Origin: Phyllobates terribilis
Taxonomy: Eukaryota
NCBI RefSeq assembly: GCF_046119375.1
Contig: NW_027362765.1
Coordinates: 101,184,001-101,248,000 of the forward strand
Length of the DNA stretch: 64,000 bases
Direction: 5' to 3'
Part shown: piece after piece, positions 12,405 to 62,865 of the stretch
How positions within the stretch are numbered: the stretch's first letter is position 1
Layout: each line of letters opens with the position of its first letter
Made by a program: the position numbers and the translations under genes
The notes under the pieces: model-generated
Database searches by the model: none
Seen by the model: the letters and a program-made list of their open reading frames with translations, nothing else
Told to the model about the DNA's origin: nothing

Positions 12405-13943
12405 CAGTTGTGCTCAAAAGTTTACATACCCCACCAGATTTTTTCCTTTCTTGGCCTTATTTCCGAGAATATGAATGAAAAACATCCAAATGACCCTGAT
12501 AAAAAGTTCACATACCCCAGTTCTTAATACCGTGTATTGCCCCCTCTAACATCAATGACAGCTTGAAGTCTTTTGTGGTAGTTGTGAATGAGGTTCTTTA
12601 TTTTCTCAGATGGTAAAGCAGCCCATTCTTCTTGGCAAAAAGCCTCCAGTTCCTGTAAATTCCTGGTCTGTCTAGCATGAACTGCGCGCTTGAGATCTCC
12701 CAAGAGTGGCTCAATGATATTGAGGTCAGGAGACTGAGATGGCCACTCCTGAACCTTCACTCTACTGTAGCCAATGACAGGTCGACTTGGCCTTGTGTTT
12801 TGGATCATTGTCAGGTTGGAACGTCGAGGTACGTCCCATGCGCAGCTTCTGGGCTGATGAGTGCAAATTTGCCTCCAGTAATTGCTGATAACGTGCTGCA
12901 TTCATCTTTCCTTCAACTTTTACCAAGTTTCCTGTGCCTTTCTAGCTCACACATTCCCAAAACATCAGCGATCCACCTTCATGCTTTACGGAAGGAATGG
13001 TGTTCCTTTCATCATAGGCCTTGTTGACCTCTCTCCAAATGTAATGTTTATGGTTGTGGCCAAAAAGTTAAATTTTGGTCTCATCACTCCAAATTACCTT
13101 GTTCCAGGAGTTTTGAGGCTTGTCTCTGTGCTGTTTGGCTTATTGAAGGCGAGATACTTTGTGGCATTTGCGCAGTAATGGCTTTCTTCTGGGGACTCGA
13201 CCATGCAGCCCATTTTTCTTCAAGTGCCTCCTTATTGTGCATCTTGAAACAGCCACACCGCTAGTTTTCAGAGAGTCCTGAATTTCAGCTGATGTTATTT
13301 GTGGGTTTTTCTTTGCATCCCGAACAATTTTCCTGGCAGTTGTGGCCGAAATTTTTGTTAGTCTACCTGACCTTCTTTTGGTTTTTACAGAGCCCCTGAT
13401 TTTCCATTTGTTAATCACAGTTTGAACGCAGCTGACTGGCATTATTAATTCCTTGGATTTTTTTTGTATCCCTTTCCTGTGTTATACAGTTCAACTACCT
13501 TTTCCCATAGATCCGTTGACAATTCTTTTGCTTTTCCCATGACTCACAATCCAGAAACGTCAGTGGCTGGATGAAAGATGCAAGAGTCTGTCTGGATCCC
13601 AGAAATTTACTCAGCTTTTATGCACACACACTGATTACGAGCAAACAGGTCACAGGTGAGGATATTACCTTTAGTAGCCATTCAAACCCATTTCTGTCAA
13701 ATTCTGTGCATGTTATCAGGCCAAAATCACCAGGGTATGTGAACTTTTGATCAGGGTCATTTGGATGTTTTTGGTTGTCATTAAGATTTAAAAAGAGAAA
13801 ACACAGTAGTTTGACAATAAATGGCTTCACCCAACCAATAACCATGAGTGGAGAAAAAGTTTTTTGTTATCACTCATATTGTCTGAAACAAGGCCAAGAA
13901 AGGAAAAATTCTGCTGGGGTATGTAAACTTTTGAGCACAACTG
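12405..13943 (-). mobile_element. Tc1/mariner transposon with IR/DR-type long inverted repeats
   Basis: TA target duplication (12403-04, 13944-45). Identical termini CAGTTGTGCTCAAAAGTTTACATACCCC. Inner direct repeats AAAAGTTCACATACCC at both ends. Length 1539 bp. Confidence 0.95.
12524..13540 (-). pseudogene. Tc1 (DD34E) transposase pseudogene
   Basis: ATG at 13540 (MGKAKELSTDL). HTH region RSGR..KISATTARKIVRDAKKNP, GRVPRRKPLL, and catalytic WPSQSPDLNIIE. Broken by frameshifts and stops. Confidence 0.92.
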
Positions 13944-14230
13944 TATATCTGCAGGTCAATAGTGTTTTGGGACATGACAGTTTTTCTTTAAGGCAATTAT
14001 GGGATGGTTTAGACTAGAGAAACTGGAAGACGTCTGGAGTGCCCACCTCTGTTTTCAGCTACATTATCACAAATTGCACCTTTCTGTATCAGTTGTCAAT
14101 TCAACGACATAATAATACTGGACAAGATCTACATTTTTTTTACAATATTTGTGTTGTGTTCTCCGAAGGATTGTGCATAACATTCACAATCTAATATCTG
14201 CTGATATTCACGACATTGACTCTCCCCCAG

Positions 14231-14479
14231 ATAACCAGGATGGCAGCTGCAACGTTGATGGGAAAGTCTATGAAGATGGAGAAACATTTCAGCCCAGCTG
14301 TAAAGTCCAGTGCACATGTGTGGATGGTGGAGTAACCTGTATCCCTCTGTGCAGTGAGGACATCAGGCTTCCGAGCCCAACATGCCCCTTTCCTATCAAA
14401 GTGGATGTCCCAGGGAAGTGCTGCCATGAGTGGATATGTAATGGACAACATCCCAAGCTCCTTAATGGTGTGGAACAAG
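14231..14479 (+). CDS. ccn5: CCN5 exon 3, von Willebrand factor type C domain
   Basis: cccag acceptor and G|GTAAGT donor; phase 1 to 1. Encodes [65 protein letters not shown]. Confidence 0.95.
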
Positions 14480-14546
14480 GTAAGTGAAAAATAGTTGTGA
14501 ATACATTGACTATTTGACCTGACTGATGACTAAAATGTAACCTTAA

Positions 14547-14920: not shown

Positions 14921-15364
14921 TTAAGGCTATGTTCTCAAGGGACGTATTTACTGCGGACCTCTCGCACCCTTGATCACTTGAGATCATATGACCATGTCCA
15001 TCCATGTCAGTACCGCCCCGTGGTTGTATGTTTGAAGTCACAGGGAGAACGGGACTGTTGTATTATATGCTGAGTGTAAATAATGACACATAATATCCTG
15101 GATTTTTAAGGGACGGTTCACAGGAAGTCACTTCAAAGGAAACATTTAAGGTCAATTTTAGTTTTAAATTAGTATCACTAAACTCACAGTTTTGCTTTTA
15201 CTAGTAAAGTGAACGTCATCGACAAATCTATGAAATAACCTGACAGGTATGACAAGACGCGACTGTAAACTGAGATCTTCAGATCATTATCACTTTCCAT
15301 CTGGTGCTGAAGGGAGAGGTCACCTTAATCATGTTATAATAGGTAATTATATTCCCCTTTGTAC

Positions 15365-17090: not shown

Positions 17091-17257
17091 CTGTTTGTTA
17101 ATTTTACAAAATAAAGTTGTTGGATCTGCTATTATTTGCTGTTGTGCAATCTATCTATAGGTTGTTAGATTACAGAGAGTGCCTGATTGCTATGTAATAT
17201 TTTTAGTCTCTGTACCTTGTTGCAGTATATGTTGGATATACATTTTCTTGTTGCCAG

Positions 17258-17427
17258 GGATGGTGGAGTCTAACTGCCCTGAGTGGAGCACAGAATGGGG
17301 ATCTTGTTCTGCTGACTGTGGCATTGGGATCTCTTTAAGAGTGACAAACCAGAATCTATTCTGCAGACTGGAAAGCCAGAGCCGCCTGTGTATAGTGAGA
17401 CCCTGTGGAGACCTCTCAGTTGGCACA
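17258..17427 (+). CDS. ccn5: CCN5 exon 4, thrombospondin type-1 domain
   Basis: ttgccag acceptor. Encodes [44 protein letters not shown]. Ends with a consensus phase-0 donor ACA|GTAAGT. Confidence 0.93.
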
Positions 17428-18622
17428 GTAAGTGTTAATGACCCTGATCGTGGCCATGTGCCATATCTCCACCCAAACTATGTGATGCAAAATGTTTCAC
17501 ACATGGTCTCAAGATGAAAACTGCAAATAGTTAGCTCTGTCTCAGTTCTAACCCACACCCCAATGACCATAGCAATTTATTAAACATAGGCTAACCCTAT
17601 ATTACCCCTGGTGCCACCAAACCAGCTGTGAACCCTTGAGGCATAGACTCCAGAAGGTCAATGAAGATGTCCTGTGGATATTAGCAGCAGACCCTATAAG
17701 TCCTGTAAGTTGTCTGGTGCACCCTCCATAGATAGGAATTGTTACTCCAGCGCATCCCAAAAGTGAGCGATTGGATTTAGATCTGTGGGTTTAGAAACAA
17801 GTTATCTCCTTGAACTCTTTGTTAAGTTACTCAAACCATCCTTGAGTAGTTTTTTGCGATACGAAAGGTGCAATACACTGTTGTAAGAGGCACTGCCATT
17901 AAAGAATTCTGCTGTCATGAAGGGGAGTACTTGGCTTTGTACTTTGGTCCATTGTTTATTTAGGTGGTACTTGTCACATCCACATGATCAAGGTTTTGCT
18001 TCCATACACTTGTATGGAGTGAGGCCACGCCCACTGGACAGGCTCTGGCCGGGAGTATGTATAACTCATACCTAACCTTCGGTCCCGGCTCAGAATCCGG
18101 CAAATCCCCGCAGCACACAGTGCATGCGCTGGGGGAATTCATAAGTCTCCAGTCACACAGAGTCACTGCAGACTTATCAATCTGGACCGGACAACAACTT
18201 AACCTAATGGTGAATATATACAAAGAGAGAGAGATACATGCTGTACATACCGTACATGTAATTAACCGATGTAGGGAGTCTGGCCCACAAAGGTCCTCAC
18301 ACTAGCACAATGTACATACTACACAACACCCTCATTATTTATAGATGGTATGACTGACCCTTACATTCTCCTTATCCTGCGCAGTGGGCGTCCTACACTG
18401 TGCAGCTGTCAGGTCACTTCATACTGTGAAGGAACATGTCACTTCATCCCGTCACTTGCAGATTATAGCTGGATTATTCGTATATCCATTGCTCCTATGA
18501 AAAGGGACAGGTGTCTGTAAGACTGTGGAGAACTTGTCCTTTCATTACATGAATATTCTCCATGGGGGTTTCACTGTTTTCATCGTGTACTTGACGTGTA
18601 CTAACACATCTTCTTCTTTCAG

Positions 18623-27260: not shown

Positions 27261-28513
27261 ATACATAAAAAAAAATTAAAAAAATCAAATACTCACCTCA
27301 CCTGCTGCTTCTGCTCTCATCGCTGCCGCTGGTCCGGACTCCTCAGCCGCGTCACCATCTTCCCGCTCTGGGCTGTGACGTCTCAGAAGAGAGCGCGGTG
27401 GAAAGACGTGATTGCGCCCTCTGATCTGAGACGTCACAGTGCAGCAACCATGAAAGATACAGGACCTGCTGCGGAGGCACGGGGAGAGGTAAGCATTGTG
27501 CCGGGGCCCTGAGCAAGCGGGGGGGGCGGGCGCTGGCACCGCTCTCCTCCGCTCACAGGTCCCATAGTGCGCCATGGTGCCCGATGGCGACTGGATCCCC
27601 CCCACCTGTTCAGGGCCACAGCACTTGCCCGGGTGCTGACGCCGGGCCTGGATGGAACCATACCTATTACAATCTATGGGGCTTTTTCACGTATCCACTT
27701 TTGCGAACTGAGCAGTCAGCACAAAATCACGGCTCAATCTCACCTCGGATCAGTTCCGCAAATGCAAGTCTTTGGGTCTGTGAAAAACTCAGACAGCATT
27801 CGGATGCTGTTGTGTGCTGTCCATTTTTCATGGACTGTTTGATAGGAGAAGCTTGAGAAACCTCCATCACATTTTTTTGTTTTTCATACAAAAAAAATGA
27901 TGAAAATCTGATGGTAAAATCTGACATATTGACCAAACTGATAAAAATTAGATTCAAAACACTAATGAAAATCGGACCATTTTTTGAGATGAGAAAAATT
28001 ACTGTATAACTGAGCCCTAAGGCCACATTCTCATGTTGAGTATTTGGTGGGTTTTTTACCTCAGTATTCGTAAGCCAAAACCAGGAGTGGGTAAAAAATA
28101 CAGAAGTGGTGACATGTTTCTATTATACTTTTCCTCTGATTGTTCCTCACCTGGTTTTGGCTTACACATACTGAGGTAAAATACTCACCAAATGCTCAAC
28201 GTGTGCACGTGGCTAAGAAGAGTCGCTGAGGAAGTAATGCTTGACCCAACGTAGACCTGAGGTCATGTTAGGACACGACTATGACAGGTGTGATGTAGGT
28301 AGCTCATGTTATATAGCTGTGAGCAGTGGGCAGCACCGAGACAGCCAGAGAGAGTCACTGTGTTTAGTGGAGGGAGGGGCAGTTCTCTGCTGTGAGATGT
28401 CAGATCGCTGCACTCCAGCAGAAGCACTGTGCTCTTCATGCATGCTGACAGCTGAAGGTCTCCATCTGCAGGCCCATGCCTGCTTCATCTAGAGCTCCCC
28501 TCCACACTCCATC

Positions 28514-29566
28514 ATGGAAGAGGATTTCTTTGAGTCGCCCATAACAGCCGGAATCCTTAATGTCAGCTCAGAATGCAACGTCAACAAGACTTTCACCTTT
28601 CGCTACTTATCTTCCGTTTACCTTATCGTCTTCATTGTAGGATCATTAGGCAATGGTTTGGGATTGTGGAATCTGTGCATGAACTGGAAGAAATGGACGT
28701 CACTGAACGTATTTGTGTTGAACCTTGGCATTGCTGACCTTCTCTATGTTGGAACGTTGCCATTTTTTGTGTCCTATTACCTTAGCGAAGGTGTTTGGAT
28801 GTTTGGTTATGGATTCTGCCGCCTCGCACGCATCATTTTCCATATGAACATGTATGCAAGTATCACCTTCCTCACCTGCATCAGCGTCCAACGCTACCTG
28901 GGAATAGTACATCCAATGAAAATGATGGGTCGTTTCCAGAACTTACGTCCTTCATTGTGCATCAGCATTATCATGTGGATATTGGTCGTTCTTCAGATCT
29001 TGCCAAACCTCCACTATACCAATGCCATAAAAAACGACACATACTGCCACGACTCGACAATCAATGAGCACCTGGAATCCTATGCGCCCTACACGCTGAG
29101 CATCACAATCACAGGTTTCTTAATTCCATTTATCATAATTTTAACTTGTTACACCCGGATCCTCACAGTTCTTACAAAAAACAAAAATGTGGACCCAGAC
29201 CTGAAGAGCAGAAGCATCAAACAAGTTTTTATCATCCTGACCCTGTTTGCTATCTGCTTCTTTCCATACTATACATTTCGAAACCTCAATTTGATTTCCA
29301 GAGTTTGGCAGCTCCAGGGAACCTGCACCGAAAGTCTAAAGAACGTTTATATATCCTATCAGGTGACCAGAGGACTGGCAGCCATGAACAGCGCCATTAA
29401 CCCTTTACTTTATTTAGTGACCAATGAAAACTTTGTTTCAAAATTTAGAAAGATCCAGAGGAGAGCCTGGTATGCCCTTGTCTATGTGGCCAGAAACCAT
29501 TCTCTCCCAGATATCCAGGCTATGTCTGTGAGTGGAAAGGAAGAAGAGATGTCTGAAGTAATGTGA
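28514..29566 (+). CDS. P2Y1-like purinergic-type GPCR (350 aa, single coding exon)
   Basis: Seven hydrophobic helices with motifs GN (TM1), LGIADLLY, CRLARIIFHMNMYASITFLTCISVQRYLGIVHP, CHDST (ECL2), FFPYYTFRN and YQVTRGLAAMNSAINPLLY. N-terminal and ECL3 cysteines could form the P2Y-type second disulfide. N-glycosylation sites NVS, NKT, NDT. A candidate AATAAA is at 30044. Confidence 0.93.
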   Translation: MEEDFFESPITAGILNVSSECNVNKTFTFRYLSSVYLIVFIVGSLGNGLGLWNLCMNWKKWTSLNVFVLNLGIADLLYVGTLPFFVSYYLSEGVWMFGYGFCRLARIIFHMNMYASITFLTCISVQRYLGIVHPMKMMGRFQNLRPSLCISIIMWILVVLQILPNLHYTNAIKNDTYCHDSTINEHLESYAPYTLSITITGFLIPFIIILTCYTRILTVLTKNKNVDPDLKSRSIKQVFIILTLFAICFFPYYTFRNLNLISRVWQLQGTCTESLKNVYISYQVTRGLAAMNSAINPLLYLVTNENFVSKFRKIQRRAWYALVYVARNHSLPDIQAMSVSGKEEEMSEVM

Positions 29567-33300: not shown

Positions 33301-33656
33301 TTAGACACTGGGGCCAACGAGCTTCAAGTTACACCACCAGCTCGGAGAGTTGCAATAGAAATTTATTTAGCCATCATTACATATGCATCTACCTGAGCCT
33401 GGATGTAATTATTTCTTGTGGTTGTTGTAGCGGTTTGCTACAACAACAATAACCAGCCATACTGGTCTTCAGTCATTTCCATGGGAAGCCCGGAGAAGAC
33501 TCAGACAATAGCAAAATGTAAAAGAATGTGCAAATTTGTGGTTGTCACCGAGCATATTGTTGCACCAAACCAGTCACATTCTAGTGGGTCACATGTGACC
33601 CAGGAATCGGCTAGCCTACTTTCCAACAATGAGAACGCTAAATTTGGAACACTTAA

Positions 33657-34103
33657 AGGGGTTGTCCACTATTAGGACAACCCCTTCTCATCTCCCATGT
33701 TTGGCCCTGATAAAAGAAAAACACCTATACTCACCTCGCATGCCATTCCAGTGGTGTTGGCACTCGCTTTCCTGAGGCTCCCTTGCGGTAGTTGTGACAA
33801 GTGAGCCTGGTGCCCAATCAGCGCTGGCGTCATTGGGCCCTCCTTTGTACATATAAGTAATCAAGAGGAAGTCCGGGCTGCGCCTGGCTGCTCACTTCTT
33901 ATACTTCTTAAGATGGGGACAGTGATGCCAACGCTGATTGGGCGCCGAGCTCACGTCACAAAAGCTGCACGTGAGCCCCAGGAAAGCGAGTGCCGACACA
34001 ACTGGAATGGCATCGGCATGGGGGGGTTAGTATAAGCGATTTTATTTTATCGGAGCCAAACATGCGGAATAAGTAGGAGTTGTCCTAGTAGTGGACAACT
34101 CCT
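33657..34103. mobile_element. T2/Kolobok-type MITE
   Basis: TTAA TSD and TIR AGGGGTTGTCCACTA.TAGGACAAC / GTTGTCCTAGTAGTGGACAACTCCT. Confidence 0.9.
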
Positions 34104-34382
34104 TTAAGTCCCACAAAGGAATGTCTCCAAAGTGACACTTTTTGGTGTGGTTATGCTAAAGGACACACCTTTGTGGTCTGGTTCACAGGATTGTGCCATC
34201 AGAATCAGGACTATTGACAATTATGCCTAAAAGAAATTGCATCAAACAGTAAGAGGGGGTGATCTGAGCAGACTACAGCCACACAACCCCTTGAAGAAGA
34301 TGTATCCTTAAACTCTTCAAAGCTCGTAAAGTAAATGGCAATGAGAGTTACAATATCATGTTATGTTTTCCCACAAAATTAC

Positions 34383-34888
34383 ACCAAATTACACTTTGCA
34401 CTGATGAGGGGCCGTGCCCCAAAACACAGTGTCTGAAAATTGAGATTCTAGTTTTTATCCTAAGTCATGTGACAAGGCTTGTTAGAGAGTCGATATTGAC
34501 TTTTAGGATTGCTACTTCCTATAGAGTTATAATCCTCTTCCTCTCTGATGAGACAATTTGCATATTTCCCAGTGGAGCATTGTGGCTTAAAAGTCTCCTC
34601 ACCTTGGCATGCTTGATATGTCACTCTCCGCAAGGAGGAACGTTACCCCTTGGATCCCGGTCAGACGCCTCTCACCCAGCCAAACCAGATCTCACACTTT
34701 GCACTGATGAGGGGCAGTACCCTGAAACGCAGTGTCTGTAAATTGAGATTCTGGTTCTGGCTTTTTATCCTAAGTCATGTGTCAAGGCTCATTAGAGAGC
34801 CGATATTGACTTTTAGGATTGCTACTTCCTATAGGTGGCACTAGAGTTCTAGTCCTCTTCCTCTCTGAAGAGACAATTTGCATATTTA
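34383..34888 (+). mobile_element. Hammerhead-containing retrozyme / satellite-2-like repeat, 1.6 units of ~303 bp
   Basis: A ~190-bp direct repeat (34383-34568, 34684-34888). Each copy starts with a hammerhead motif, with CTGATGA at 34401 and 34704. Confidence 0.75.
34699..34741 (+). ncRNA. Type I hammerhead ribozyme (predicted cleavage after GUC at 34736)
   Basis: TTGCA-CTGATGA-GGGG(CAGTA)CCCT-GAAAC(GCAGT)GTC-TGTAA: intact core, 4-bp stem II, minimal stem III, and stem I TTGCA/TGTAA with one G-U pair. Confidence 0.8.
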
Positions 34889-35669
34889 ACAAACTGGCAT
34901 CCTTGTATAGAATTATTATCAAGGGCCGTTCTTTGAGTAATAGTGAGAAAGGCAGATGATTTATTATGTCTAATGTGCTCTTTAACCTTTTTGTTGCAAC
35001 AACATATTATGAATGTAGTTGGGTTGAATGCAAGCACTGTGCCCTTACCGGTGATATGTTATGTGTTGTTTGAAGGTTAACTGAGGTCACAGATCATATG
35101 TGAGGACACTAGAGCCATGTGCTGCACAGGTTTTGGTCCATGTGATGCCATTTTTATCAGAATAAAATGCTCTGTATGAGCAGCAATGTGAAGTATCCAC
35201 TCAACATCAATAATATGTGGATTTTAGAGTAGATTCTATTAAAATTCTATGTAAAAAAACTTAAAAGAGGTTAATTATGGTCAGTAGGAGTATTTCAGAG
35301 AGAAACACTCTGCTAAATTTGTAACACTTGGGTGAATACAGCCATGACCTAAAGTGAGCTACGGCTGTAGACCATGCCACCCTGCCTGTACTGCAACCAC
35401 CTGTGGTGCACAAAATGTGGCCTAAAAAGTGCTACTATGGATTAAGACAGTGAGGAGAATCTGTGCCCTGCATTGTTGAGTTGTGCTGTGACATTCATTG
35501 TTGAGGTCTACTGTGGCCTCCACTTGTGGTTAACATTGCAAACTCCTAGTAGTGAGAAAGTAACTGTAACCTGTACTAAATGTGATATAGTGAGTACTGT
35601 GGTGTCAGGCTGTATCCATTAATTGTGGCAACTACCTGCTGAGAAATACTCAGACTGCTGTTACTAGCT

Positions 35670-43037: not shown

Positions 43038-46000
43038 CCCCTTTCTGACGTCGGGCGTAATAATACGTACCTGCACCCTGGGCCTATTCGACCAGGTATG
43101 TATTATTACGCCCTACCTTAATGCGGCACCGTGGTGATCGCATTAAATTTCCGGCGCTATCTTACCTTAGGGTAGATGGCGTCGTCATCCTGGGGGGGGG
43201 GTTCACTGCCCGCCCGCAACCACTATCGCTGTGATTGACTGTTCAATTTTGAACACTCAATCACAGCATTTCTCAGTGTTTCAGGCAATCAGATTGCCTG
43301 AAACACTGATGTGCAGCCTAGGATCGGTGCTCTAAGAACACCGACCCTAGGCTGGTGCCTGGCAATGCCAGGCCTGGCCTCAAACCCACTCTGATTGGTG
43401 CGATCGACGATGACATCAATTGCACTAATCAGAGCGCGTGACCGCGCCGTGACCGGGCAGTGACAGGCCTGTGACCTGGCTGTCACAGCTCTATGACCCA
43501 CCTGTGACTGCCGGCCTCGCCCCAGCCCGCTCAGATTGGTGCAAACGACGATGAGATCGATCGCACCAATCAAAAGGCGTGACCACGCTGTAACCTGGCG
43601 GTGACCGGCCTGTAACCTGGGACTCACAGTTGCTGAGGATTTGTGCAGGGCGGTCACACTGCTGATCTTCTCTGTGCTGGGCTTTGTGGTGCCACAGAAG
43701 CCTCTGTGACACCACAATACCTGCTCCTACTTGCCCCTGCTCCGGTCTGCTGCTGCTTCTTCAAAAAGAAGAGATACGACTTTGGTAAGTACACCTCTGA
43801 TCTTCTCATCCACCCCAATCCACCTCCCCCACCTCTTCTGCTGCAACAGAAAACATCAGACAGAAGAAGACAAGACAACTGTTCGTAGATTTTTTGATCC
43901 CTCCTCATCCACCCCAATCCCCCTCTCCCCCCTTCCTCCCTAGCCACCCCTCTGTTCTGCCACTGAGCGCTGATCAGTACTTGATCACTTGACTTTTTTT
44001 TTTCGTGCTTTCTGCATTGGCCGAGCGCTTATTAGTGACCGCAGATCACTGATCCGCACTCGTGCTCGTTGTTTTACACTTTTTTTCCATCCCTTTTTGT
44101 ATCACCTCCGTGCACACATCCACAAGCCGCCGAGCGTTGATCAGTGACGCAGTCCACTGATCCGCACTCGTGCTCGCTGTTTGCACCACCTCCAGCTGTT
44201 CCCTTTTTTTTTTTTTTTTTTGTCATTTTCTTTCAGGAAAAAAAAAAAAAAGTTTACACCAAGCACACTGACACACACACTTAATAAAGTACTGACACGC
44301 ACACACCACATACATAAATAAAAATGTTATCCCAAACCCGCTATTCAGTGGAGGACGCTTTTCTTGCTTCCAACACTGGCCTCCGACACTGACAGTGAGG
44401 GAGAGGATCCCACCTTTTTTATTTTTCTGACTCCTCGTCGTCGTCCTCCTCTTCCTCCTCAAGTGCTGCTGAACCACCACCATGCAGATGCCCCAGGACA
44501 GAAGATGAACCGGCACTCCCCATTACTGACCCCGTATGGACCTCGCCCCCGAAAATTATGAGCCTCTGATTCCTGATTTTGTAGAGAATTAGGAATCAAG
44601 TTTGACTCCACCGGCCTCACAGAAACAGACTTTTCAAAGTCTTTTTCTCTGAGGATTTTGTAAACCTCATGGTGGGCCAAACTAATTTGTACGCTCAACA
44701 ATTTTTGGCAGAAAACCACTCATTTTTTAACTGGTCTCCTGTAGAAGCAGTAGAAATTATAAAGTTTTGGGGCCTGGTCCTTCACATGGGGATCCTGAAG
44801 AAGCCAGAAGTTTGGCAATACTGGAGTGTTGACGTTTTATATAACACTCTAGTGTTTCGAATGGTCATGACCCGGACACGCTTTGAGGCCATCCACAAGT
44901 TCTTGCATTACATCAATAATGCATGATGTCCTGCATGTGATGACCCAAACTTTGATAGTCTTTTCAAAGTTTGGCCGGTCATCTAGCATTTCAACAACAA
45001 GTTTACTGAAGTGTACGTGCCCCTAAGGGACATCTGCGTAGATGAGTCCCTAATTCATTTTAAGGGGAGGCTTGGATTCCGGCAGTACCTGCCCAGTAAG
45101 AGGGCCTGGTACGGAATTAAGCTGTATAAACTGTGTGAGAGTATGTCAGGGTACACTCACAAGTGTAGAGTTTATGAAGGGAAGGACTGATTGAACCCCT
45201 TGAATGCCCTCCTGCTCTGGGAGTGAGTGTGAAAATTGTGTGGGATTTGGTGCACCCACTGCTGGATAAAGGATATCACCTCTACGTGGCTAACTTTTAT
45301 ACCAGCATCCCTCTCTTCAAGTCCCTCTCTGCGCAAGGTACCGCAGCCTGTGGTACTGTCCGCAAAAATCAGAGAGGCCTCCCGAAGACGCTAATTGGGC
45401 AGATGCTCAGAAGGGATGTCTTTCTTTTGACCACCATACATGGTGATGGCAGCACCCCATGCGCTGTACGAGGTTCCTCTACACAGGTCATCAGACCAGA
45501 CTGTGTAGTGGAGTACAACAAGTACATGGGGGGAGTTGATCTCTCTGGTCAAGTCCTCCAGCTGTACAGTGCTTTGAGAAAGGCTAAGGTGTGGTACAAG
45601 GAGCTGGCTGTGCACATCATACAGATGGCAATGCACAACACTTTTCTTCTATCACGATGTGTAGGCCAGACTTCTACGTCGTACCTTCAATTCCAGAAGG
45701 TAGTGATCAAGGCCCTGATATTTGGCAGTGCTGACAGAGCGGGCCCCAGTACTTCCAGAACTGAAGGACCTCAAATTGTACCAGGCCAGAATTTCCCGGG
45801 GGAGCTCCCTCAAAGCGGAAAAAAAGATAAGTCGCAAAAGAAGTGCCAAGTGTGTTACAAAAGGGGAATACGCAAGGACACCATTAATCAATGTGACTCC
45901 TGCCCCGACAAACCTGGCCTGTGCATGAAAGAATGCTTCAGAAGGTACCATACTTCCTTGCACGGCTAAATTAATTTCTGACGTATGACTACCTGACAAA

Positions 46001-61870: not shown

Positions 61871-62865
61871 ATGTTGGAAGCGGAGGGGACTGCCACCGCC
61901 AGCGCGGCCGCTGCCGCAGTAATGCCATTCACAATGCCTTACATCCCCGGAGCGGCCTGGCTGCCCCAATACTCAGGGGAGTCGCATACCCTAAGCGACT
62001 TTAAAGAGAAACTGTACAGCCTATTTAAAGTTTTCCCCCCTTGACGGAGGGACAAAAAGTGAGCATATTGATAGGCCAGCTAACCGGCGCAGCCCAACGT
62101 GAAGTAAAGTCCTGGTCAGTCCAGGACAAGGAGACCGTGAAGGAGATCTTAGCCCGTCTGAAGGACACTTTTGATACCCGTACCTCAGCAGAGATCAAAA
62201 TGAGATTTTATGGGTGCAAGCCGCGGGCCCAAGACAGTATAAGAGACTATGCTTTGAATTTGCAGGAGGCCCTGGGAGCCATTAAACAGGCAGACCCTGA
62301 CAGTGTGCGGAATGCAGATGAACTATTGACTGAGAAATTCATTGAGGGTCTGCTGTCCAACGCCCACCGAACCCAGTTCCGTGCAATGGCCTTGCAGAAC
62401 CCTGGGTTAGACTTTGCAAAGTTCAAAGACAGGGCCATCCGGGTGCTCCGAAAACCGGCACCGGGTAGTGCTGTAACCCACCGGTGCCCTGCTATTACCT
62501 ATCACCAGGAGGCGGCGTCCTTGTCTGTAGAGCCTGTGGGAGCTGGTGCGCAGGCTTTGGATAAAGACCCGGCTGCAGACCTGCACCATCAGGTCCAAGA
62601 ACTGACCAAAAGCGTTGCCGCATTAACCAGGACTGTGCAGTCGTTACAGGTATCCTCTCCAGGAAGGATCAAGCTGGCCACCAGTCCGGAGTCGTCCCGT
62701 GGCGCCGACAGAGGAGGATCCCATCGTCCAGAGGAAGACCCAGCGACCGCTACAATGAAGACGGACAGTCCATCTGCCGCCGCTGCAACCAACCAGGACA
62801 TATGGCAAGGTACTGTAATTTAAAACGAGTCCAACCTGGGGCAAAGGGCCAACCCCCAGGCGTAA
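61871..62865 (+). pseudogene. Gypsy gag (PNMA-like capsid plus CCHC zinc knuckle), frameshifted
   Basis: MPYIPGAAWLPQYSG..., GQLTGAAQREV, IRDYALNLQEAL and CRRCNQPGHMARYC. Frameshifts at the C6 run (~62035-40) and near 62691. Confidence 0.88.

What the first reader, a model, noticed from the sequence alone, without database searches (positions are those of the whole stretch)
34383..34888. Retrozyme / satellite-2-like element with a canonical hammerhead ribozyme
Seen: a terminally redundant 1.6-mer of a ~303-bp unit with hammerhead motifs at the same position in each repeat. The second (34699-34741) has a perfect CUGAUGA/GAAA core, GUC site and three stems. The first has GAAA changed to AAAA (predicted dead). 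There is no coding capacity. Established: newt satellite 2 and metazoan non-LTR retrozymes are 150-400-bp tandem units whose transcripts self-cleave into monomers and circles, and minimal-stem-III hammerheads often act as dimers. Inference: a dispersed copy of a frog retrozyme family that may produce circular RNA and be mobilised in trans by an autonomous RT, possibly the Penelope-like elements whose relics are also in this window.
Basis: partly seen in the sequence, partly recalled or inferred. Interest (0 to 1): 0.8.

Follow-up and report, generated by a model that had tools for sequence, protein, structure and literature searches.

The report
Decayed copy of amphibian retrozyme family
This is one worn-out copy of a small self-cutting RNA jumping element found thousands of times in this genome, a known kind of element, but the ends of its copies record how Penelope-type enzymes probably paste it in and it seems to carry its own snRNA-type promoter.

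Summary
The hammerheads are real: the copy at 34698-34742 has an intact type I core, the one at 34395-34439 has lost G12. The true period is 320 bp; 303 reflects two deletions in this copy. It belongs to a dispersed non-coding family (2,662 intact-core matches genome-wide, control 0) with a second 332-bp subfamily. The subfamilies share the catalytic core and differ by two compensatory stem pairs. Copies end at two fixed 3' sites (about +146 and +238 after cleavage), are 5'-truncated, and often carry an inverted 5' piece and 9-15-bp target duplications, as Penelope-like insertions do. Repeats within one insertion share private variants, as rolling-circle copying predicts. An octamer and a PSE-like motif resembling this genome's U6 promoters suggest a newt-satellite-2-type promoter. 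This locus is 7% decayed and probably cannot release a circle. I found no parent Penelope element and no Penelope relic in the window. Cleavage and expression are untested. It is a new member of the known non-LTR retrozymes; the scan's earlier notes held no look-alike.

The parts
34391..34887 (+). Whole insertion, about 1.6 periods; 5' edge uncertain (34383-34391); 3' end is +151 after the cleavage site, in the family's main 3'-end cluster; no convincing target duplication
   Evidence: best duplication 6 of 7, chance level
34391..34567 (+). Partial first unit, with 7-bp and 10-bp deletions relative to unit 2
34395..34439 (+). Hammerhead 1: G12 lost (AAAA at 34421-34424), mismatch in stem I; site GTC 34431-34433; predicted inactive core
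34556..34563 (+). Octamer motif; the 12-mer 34556-34567 is identical to the distal element upstream of this genome's U6 array
   Evidence: octamer in 3 of 200 shuffles; unchanged between subfamilies
34566..34584 (+). SPH-like motif next to the octamer (weak; consensus recalled, not scored)
   Evidence: visual likeness to the motif after the octamer-like site of U6 locus L286
34568..34887 (+). One full 320-bp period; differs from the family majority at 22 of 320 positions
34619..34633 (+). PSE-like motif; no TATA box at the U6 spacing (34660-34666)
   Evidence: window unit 12 of 15 to U6 locus L285 (6 of 200 shuffles), subfamily 2 14 of 15 (1 of 200); not significant against U1 or L286
34646..34658 (+). 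Position equivalent to the family's second 3'-end cluster (+230 to +242)
34685..34687 (+). Predicted transcription start (inference from U1/U6 PSE spacing), about 50 nt before the cleavage site
   Evidence: not shown experimentally
34678..34762 (+). Extended stem I with internal loop around hammerhead 2 (34683-34694 pairs with 34744-34756)
   Evidence: compensatory C-G/U-A pair between subfamilies
34698..34742 (+). Hammerhead 2, type I, intact core, weak stem III with self-complementary loop; predicted cleavage after 34736
34876..34883 (+). Second octamer copy, coinciding with the main 3'-end cluster

Best explanation
The locus is a passively decaying insertion of a non-autonomous, non-LTR retrozyme family. 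Proposed cycle: (1, inferred) an internal octamer/PSE snRNA-type promoter fires about 50 nt upstream of a hammerhead in source loci with two or more intact units; (2, inferred from known families) tandem type I hammerheads cut the transcript into 320-332-nt monomers that a host ligase circularises; (3, inferred from insertion ends) a Penelope-like RT/GIY-YIG protein supplied in trans nicks DNA and starts target-primed reverse transcription at one of two internal sites, about +146 or +238 after the cleavage site; (4, inferred) it copies round the monomer through the junction and stops at random, sometimes with a second inverted priming. Shown in sequence: fixed 3' ends, variable 5' ends, partial tandems, inversions, target duplications, covariation. 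This copy has a dead first core, deletions, and its promoter lies between the two hammerheads, so it probably cannot release a full monomer.
For: Thousands of dispersed copies, controls 0. 3' ends: 24 of 30 hammerhead-selected loci in two windows; in a second set 51 of 81 at +142-155 and 20 of the 30 that run past +155 at +230-242 (p 7e-21). Duplications with 10 or more matches: 16 of 82 against a mean of 0.17 in shuffled pairings. Inverted 5' piece in 30 of 83, 12 of them starting in the two clusters. These match PLE features in PMC8557442 (passages) and PMC11167929 (results). Subfamily majorities differ at 60 of 332 positions, none in the catalytic core or octamer; two family-level compensatory pairs. 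13 of 152 locus-private non-CpG variants are shared by repeats of one insertion, in 9 of 26 loci, against a 1.6% per-site background; variants shared by all units in longer arrays. No excess of 5' ends at the cleavage site, 3 against 3.3 expected with 66 crossings. Promoter motifs resemble this genome's U6 promoters. Neptune-type PLEs exist in the genome.
Against: No cleavage, circle or transcription data. No PLE with a homologous terminal repeat among the loci sampled. The two 3' ends lie 90-100 bp apart, not the 30-40 bp of the classical PLE tail. Shared variants could come from gene conversion or local duplication, and crossing of the junction fits uncleaved multimers equally well. Only 1 of 9 Xenopus retrozyme dimers cleaved in vitro (bioRxiv 10.64898/2026.07.22.740005), and hammerhead cleavage was dispensable for PLE insertion in vitro (PMC11167929). 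Inserted copies show no protection of the core (25 of 69 intact; core divergence 0.116 against 0.089 overall). The PSE match is not significant against U1 or one of three U6 loci, and borderline for the window copy. Rfam does not recognise the motif.
Confidence: 0.8

Rival explanations
1. Same family and same PLE-type enzyme, but the template is an uncleaved linear multimer or a template-jumping linear monomer; circles are by-products or absent.
For: RT crosses the cleavage site without a stop; hammerhead mutants still insert in the Anolis PLE system (PMC11167929); most Xenopus dimers did not cleave; in L132 all three hammerheads share a core-breaking change.
Against: Linear copying alone cannot spread a variant to every repeat of an insertion; junctions are mostly precise, 52 of 57 without indel; core and stems are conserved between subfamilies.
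Confidence: 0.3
2. The copies are 5'-truncated ends (pseudo-LTR plus tail) of an autonomous Penelope-like element, not an independent retrozyme.
For: Insertion ends are PLE-like; 24 of 57 Xenopus retrozyme families matched known TEs, nearly all PLE termini; L032 lies 170 bp upstream of a Neptune-type frame.
Against: Upstream of the 3' end the sequence continues into another unit, up to about 20 units. No flank shared in fixed register with coding sequence among 188 loci. L089 has its own 12-bp duplication; none of the 19 other Neptune loci related to L032 carries the unit. The Neptune hammerheads seen differ in sequence.
Confidence: 0.1
3. A LINE-mobilised SINE or a DNA rolling-circle (Helitron-like) repeat that happens to contain a hammerhead-like word.
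For: Fixed 3' ends, 5' truncation and inversions also occur with L1; tandem copies with fixed ends occur with Helitron-like elements (own knowledge).
Against: No poly(A) or simple-repeat tail seen at the printed 3' ends; two alternative 3' ends inside a tandem unit; long target duplications, which Helitrons lack (own knowledge); covarying hammerhead.
Confidence: 0.05
4. An LTR pair of a small LTR element (TRIM or plant-type LTR retrozyme).
For: This copy looks terminally redundant.
Against: The 'internal' part is simply the rest of the period; copies run from 36 bp to about 20 units with variable 5' ends; the hammerhead is type I; duplications are longer than 4 bp.
Confidence: 0.01

Closest known systems
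Metazoan non-LTR retrozymes (Cervera and de la Pena 2020, PMC7229834, passages read; Li, Clavereau and Pollet 2026, bioRxiv 10.64898/2026.07.22.740005, main text read)
   Same: Non-coding unit of 150-450 bp with one type I hammerhead, tandem and dispersed copies, target duplications longer than 4 bp, co-occurrence with PLEs; the amphibian mean unit length given there is 316 bp.
   Different: The two fixed 3' ends, inverted 5' pieces and within-insertion variant sharing were not described in the text I read. No homologous PLE terminal repeat was found here. The preprint's supplements were closed, so this family may be in its catalogue.
Newt satellite 2 / axolotl HHR_Amex1 retrozyme
   Same: About 330-bp unit; weak stem III with self-complementary loop suited to dimer cleavage; internally looped stem I extension (PMC6155905, passages); snRNA-type internal promoter reported for the newt (cited in PMC2220036, passage; the primary paper was not held).
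   Different: Mostly short dispersed insertions rather than satellite arrays; the loop III palindrome is 5 nt with an unpaired centre rather than a tetraloop; sequence homology to satellite 2 was not tested.
Penelope-like elements (Neptune, Poseidon) and their pseudo-LTR/tail (PMC8557442 passages; PMC11167929 results; PMC4209133 first part and passage)
   Same: 5' truncation, partial tandems, inverted 5' copy, two alternative 3' ends downstream of a hammerhead.
   Different: No ORF; canonical rather than minimal hammerhead; ends 90-100 bp apart rather than 30-40 bp.

Membership tests
Metazoan non-LTR retrozyme | Type I hammerhead with conserved core in each repeat | tested here: met
   Family level. 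In the window only hammerhead 2 is intact.
Metazoan non-LTR retrozyme | Tandem unit of 150-450 bp | tested here: met
   320 bp and 332 bp periods
Metazoan non-LTR retrozyme | Non-coding, no LTR architecture | tested here: met
   PBS and PPT were not searched separately
Metazoan non-LTR retrozyme | Target duplications longer than 4 bp when present | tested here: met
   16 of 82 with 10 or more matches against 0.17 in controls; none convincing at this copy
Metazoan non-LTR retrozyme | 'Active' locus: two consecutive units with complete hammerheads (Li et al. criterion) | tested here: not met
   Not met at this locus (first core broken); met at other loci such as L125 and L126
Metazoan non-LTR retrozyme | Self-cleavage in vitro | not testable with these tools
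   Needs a bench assay
Metazoan non-LTR retrozyme | Linear and circular monomer RNA in tissues | not testable with these tools
   Only assembled contigs of guessed-RNA runs were available
Newt satellite 2 | Extended hammerhead: internally looped stem I, weak stem III with palindromic loop | tested here: met
Newt satellite 2 | Internal snRNA-type promoter | tested here: inconclusive
   Octamer and PSE-like motifs resemble U6 promoters of this genome; mixed significance, function untested
Newt satellite 2 | Sequence homology to satellite 2 | not tested
   No satellite 2 sequence was available from a tool
Newt satellite 2 | Abundant long tandem arrays | tested here: not met
   Mean sense length 295 nt in 83 loci; one array of about 20 units among 40 scored candidates
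Penelope-like element (autonomous) | RT plus GIY-YIG ORF joined to the repeat | tested here: not met
Non-autonomous PLE derivative | 5' truncation, partial tandem, inverted 5' copy | tested here: met
Non-autonomous PLE derivative | Optional 30-40-bp tail (two 3' ends) | tested here: inconclusive
   Two ends present, but 90-100 bp apart
Non-autonomous PLE derivative | Homology to the terminal repeat of an autonomous PLE | tested here: inconclusive
   None in 30 + 20 + 20 PLE-associated stretches, but only 150 of 4,370 GIY-YIG candidates were scored
Plant-type LTR retrozyme / TRIM | Type III hammerhead in LTRs, 4-bp target duplication | tested here: not met
   Type I topology, longer duplications, variable ends

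The most novel reading that the evidence does not exclude
The family is a satellite-2-like RNA circle with its own snRNA-type promoter rather than a deleted PLE end. A PLE enzyme copies it by rolling-circle reverse transcription from two internal start sites that can be read from genomic copies, the first on the octamer. Insertions that end at the second site (20 of 81 and 10 of 30 sampled) leave a whole octamer-SPH-PSE cassette pointing into host DNA, seeding mobile snRNA-type promoters across the genome. This would be direct genomic evidence for the still unproven retrozyme mobilisation route.
Probability: 0.35. Interest if true: 0.7.

Novelty: new member of a known kind. Interest (0 to 1): 0.45.

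Why it matters
The class is known, a 2026 preprint finds it in all seven amphibian genomes sampled, and this copy is probably dead. The value lies in the family. Both key papers propose PLE mobilisation of retrozyme circles, and the preprint leaves the mechanism open. The mapped 3' ends give two exact predicted RT start sites, the shared variants give a test for circular templates, and the promoter motifs give a predicted start site. Each can be tested with standard assays. The PLE-type end signature and the promoter in a retrozyme of this kind did not turn up in my searches, but the library lacks most subscription papers and the preprint's supplements were closed.

Tried and rejected
Rfam: no match at gathering score, no hammerhead at E up to 10. 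RNA evidence: no RNA holder listed; contigs of four guessed-RNA runs cannot show expression, strand or ends. Pattern scans of metagenome and viral contigs: 0 matches each. Excess of 5' ends at the cleavage site as a fossil of cleaved linear templates: suggested by L042 and L135, not supported, 3 against 3.3 expected. L032 as a terminal-repeat-to-ORF junction: rejected, 19 related Neptune loci lack the unit. L089 as a PLE repeat: rejected, it has its own 12-bp duplication. Parent PLE: not found. PLE relics in the window: not found; one isolated RT-like motif near 15229 on the minus strand had no context. Target duplication at this copy: chance level. U1 PSE match: not significant; U2 promoters were not obtained. 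Alignment A2 was discarded because one row was on the wrong strand (redone). The primary paper on the satellite 2 promoter was not available. Earlier scan notes: nothing by sequence or place, one unrelated PLE pseudoknot note by words.

Full report
Observation. The window holds two copies of a hammerhead-bearing repeat. Clear homology runs from 34391 to 34887. The stretch 34568-34887 is one 320-bp period, and 34391-34567 is a partial copy lacking 7 and 10 bp, which is why the hammerheads lie 303 bp apart. Hammerhead 2 (34698-34742) has a full type I core with predicted cleavage after 34736. Hammerhead 1 has AAAA for GAAA and a stem I mismatch. Rfam does not detect either. The minimum-energy fold pairs loop III with the start of the core and is not the active fold; an intact family copy behaves the same way. 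A 148-aa stop-to-stop frame across the element has no Pfam match.

Family. The window lies in a 10.57-Gb genome. A search with most of the unit gave 4,481 candidates; 40 were scored and gave 93 matches on 10 contigs. Exact patterns gave 610, 2,194 and 2,662 matches, each with 0 for the reversed control. A second subfamily, 78% identical with a 332-bp period, was found by chance in a GIY-YIG locus. Segments in the 3'-selected loci diverge 8.9% from their majority and the window period 22 of 320. Subfamily 2 segments diverge 2.1%, but these were top hits and so are biased young. Most insertions are short (mean sense length 295 nt in 83 loci); one array of about 20 units was seen among 40 scored candidates. 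Contigs from four runs of four other coded organisms also hold the family (1,492, 744, 283 and 296 records laid), with loose ends at 34883-34889 in all four. This shows presence, not expression.

Ribozyme conservation. Subfamily majorities differ at 60 of 332 positions, none in the catalytic core or the octamer. Hammerhead, stem I and promoter motifs together change less than the rest (14 of 128 against 46 of 204, p 0.008; regions chosen after seeing the data). In 20 hand-picked hammerheads 94.6% of cells pair, and two pairs change on both sides between subfamilies: G-C/C-G in stem II and C-G/U-A in the stem I extension. Each may be a single evolutionary event. Loop III is self-complementary in both subfamilies and gives an 8-bp dimer helix of about -8 kcal/mol. 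Four of four circular sense units plus the window period fold better than shuffles (z -2.3 to -3.9, antisense -0.9 to -2.2; 40 shuffles). Inserted copies decay without protection: 25 of 69 cores were intact in loci chosen on another part of the unit (small indels counted as broken).

Insertion ends. In 30 loci chosen only on the hammerhead, 14 3' ends fell at +141-155 and 10 at +227-247 after the cleavage site (windows set after viewing). A second set came from the first 100 listed places, all on contig C1: 29 of its 30 loci (one duplicate dropped) plus 54 fetched. Of 81 counted (2 dropped: one with a further downstream piece, one running off the stretch), 51 ended at +142-155, 20 at +230-242 and 10 elsewhere. 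The anchor ends at +142, so the stronger test is that 20 of the 30 that ran past +155 stopped at +230-242 (p 7e-21). One locus is shared with the first set, and two look like a segmental duplicate pair. 5' ends were scattered. 30 of 83 had an inverted 5' piece, 12 starting in the two clusters. Duplications of 10 or more matches flanked 16 of 82 against 0.17 in shuffled pairings. No poly(A) tail was seen in the printed ends. PLE insertions are described as 5'-truncated partial tandems with an inverted 5' copy and an optional 30-40-bp tail (PMC8557442, passages). In the Anolis PLE the tail ends equal two internal RT start sites (PMC11167929, results read). The signature here is the same, with a longer interval. 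The window copy ends at +151 and has no convincing duplication.

Template. 5' ends show no excess at the cleavage site (3 against 3.3 expected, 66 crossings), so the template is not a simple cleaved linear monomer. In subfamily 2, 13 of 152 locus-private non-CpG variants were carried by two or more repeats of the same insertion, in 9 of 26 loci, against 1.6% per site. Longer arrays have variants in every unit, and one shows an alternating two-unit pattern. 52 of 57 junctions had no indel. This fits rolling-circle copying as proposed in PMC7229834 (passages). Gene conversion, local duplication or template jumping are not excluded, and all three hammerheads of L132 share a core-breaking change.

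Promoter. The unit carries an octamer (34556-34563) whose 12-mer context is identical to the distal element of this genome's U6 array, a weak SPH-like motif, and a PSE-like motif at 34619-34633. Subfamily 2 matches one U6 PSE at 14 of 15 (1 of 200 shuffles) and another at 12 of 15 (6 of 200). The window unit matches the first at 12 of 15 (6 of 200) and the second not significantly. Matches to U1 and to a third U6 locus were not significant. There is no TATA box at the U6 spacing. Newt satellite 2 is reported to use an snRNA-type polymerase II promoter (citing passage in PMC2220036; primary paper not seen). U1 spacing predicts a start near 34685-34687.

This copy. The putative promoter lies between the two hammerheads, so its own transcript would contain only hammerhead 2 and run into the flank. 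In a read-through dimer, core 2 would cut site 1 and the dead core 1 could not cut 34736 (inference from the double-hammerhead geometry, PMC4209133 first part). Monomer cleavage through the extended stem I remains possible (PMC6155905, passage), but three G-U changes weaken it. The locus fails the two-intact-units criterion of the 2026 preprint.

Partner. Neptune-type PLEs are present, some with long open frames and their own different hammerheads. The unit matched none of their flanks except as separate insertions, and 188 element loci shared no flank with coding sequence in fixed register. Only 150 of 4,370 GIY-YIG candidates were scored, so a parent may exist. No PLE coding relic was found in the window; Poseidon-type queries were not tried.

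Comparison and verdict. It works like, and at family level meets the testable sequence criteria of, metazoan non-LTR retrozymes (PMC7229834; bioRxiv 10.64898/2026.07.22.740005, parts 1-3 of 5 read, which cover the main text; supplements closed). Cleavage and circles are untested, and only 1 of 9 Xenopus dimers cleaved in that preprint. It resembles newt satellite 2 in anatomy, but homology was not tested. The class is known and this copy is decayed, so I rate it a new member of a known kind. The end map, variant sharing and promoter make the open mobilisation question testable, hence interest 0.45. The scan's notes held no look-alike.

Noticed in passing
window 28493-29566 (+): Intronless class A G-protein-coupled receptor frame, 357 aa (Pfam 7tm_1, E 1e-49), about 4.8 kb upstream of the element.
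   Followed up: no
window 14116-14487 and 17161-17517 (+): Exons of a CCN-family gene (VWC and TSP1_CCN domains).
   Followed up: no
window 33651-34109: Nested inverted repeat, MITE-like, about 280 bp upstream of the element.
   Followed up: no
window 12524-13481 (-), 45178-45969 (+), 62029-62823 (+): Tc1-type and piggyBac-type transposase fragments, and a PNMA/gag-like frame.
   Followed up: no
L039, L043, L060: Three of 30 hammerhead-selected copies sit at nearly the same site of one common repeat, and more loci have that repeat in their flanks; possible target preference.
   Followed up: partly
L291 873-2299 (reverse strand): A 4.3-unit insertion with a target duplication and alternating unit variants, as a dimer template or a dimer duplication would give.
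   Followed up: no
window 34737-34745 and 34874-34882: The first bases after the cleavage site are complementary to the octamer region at the main 3'-end cluster in the family majority; this could be an alternative fold that competes with stem I.
   Followed up: no
L103 360-3294 (reverse strand): Neptune-type PLE with an open frame of at least 923 aa and its own hammerhead with a palindromic loop; the same matched stretch occurs on three unplaced contigs.
   Followed up: partly
L287 (G000:C7:126179669-126186250): Longest array seen, about 20 units with higher-order deletions, still ending at the main 3'-end cluster.
   Followed up: partly
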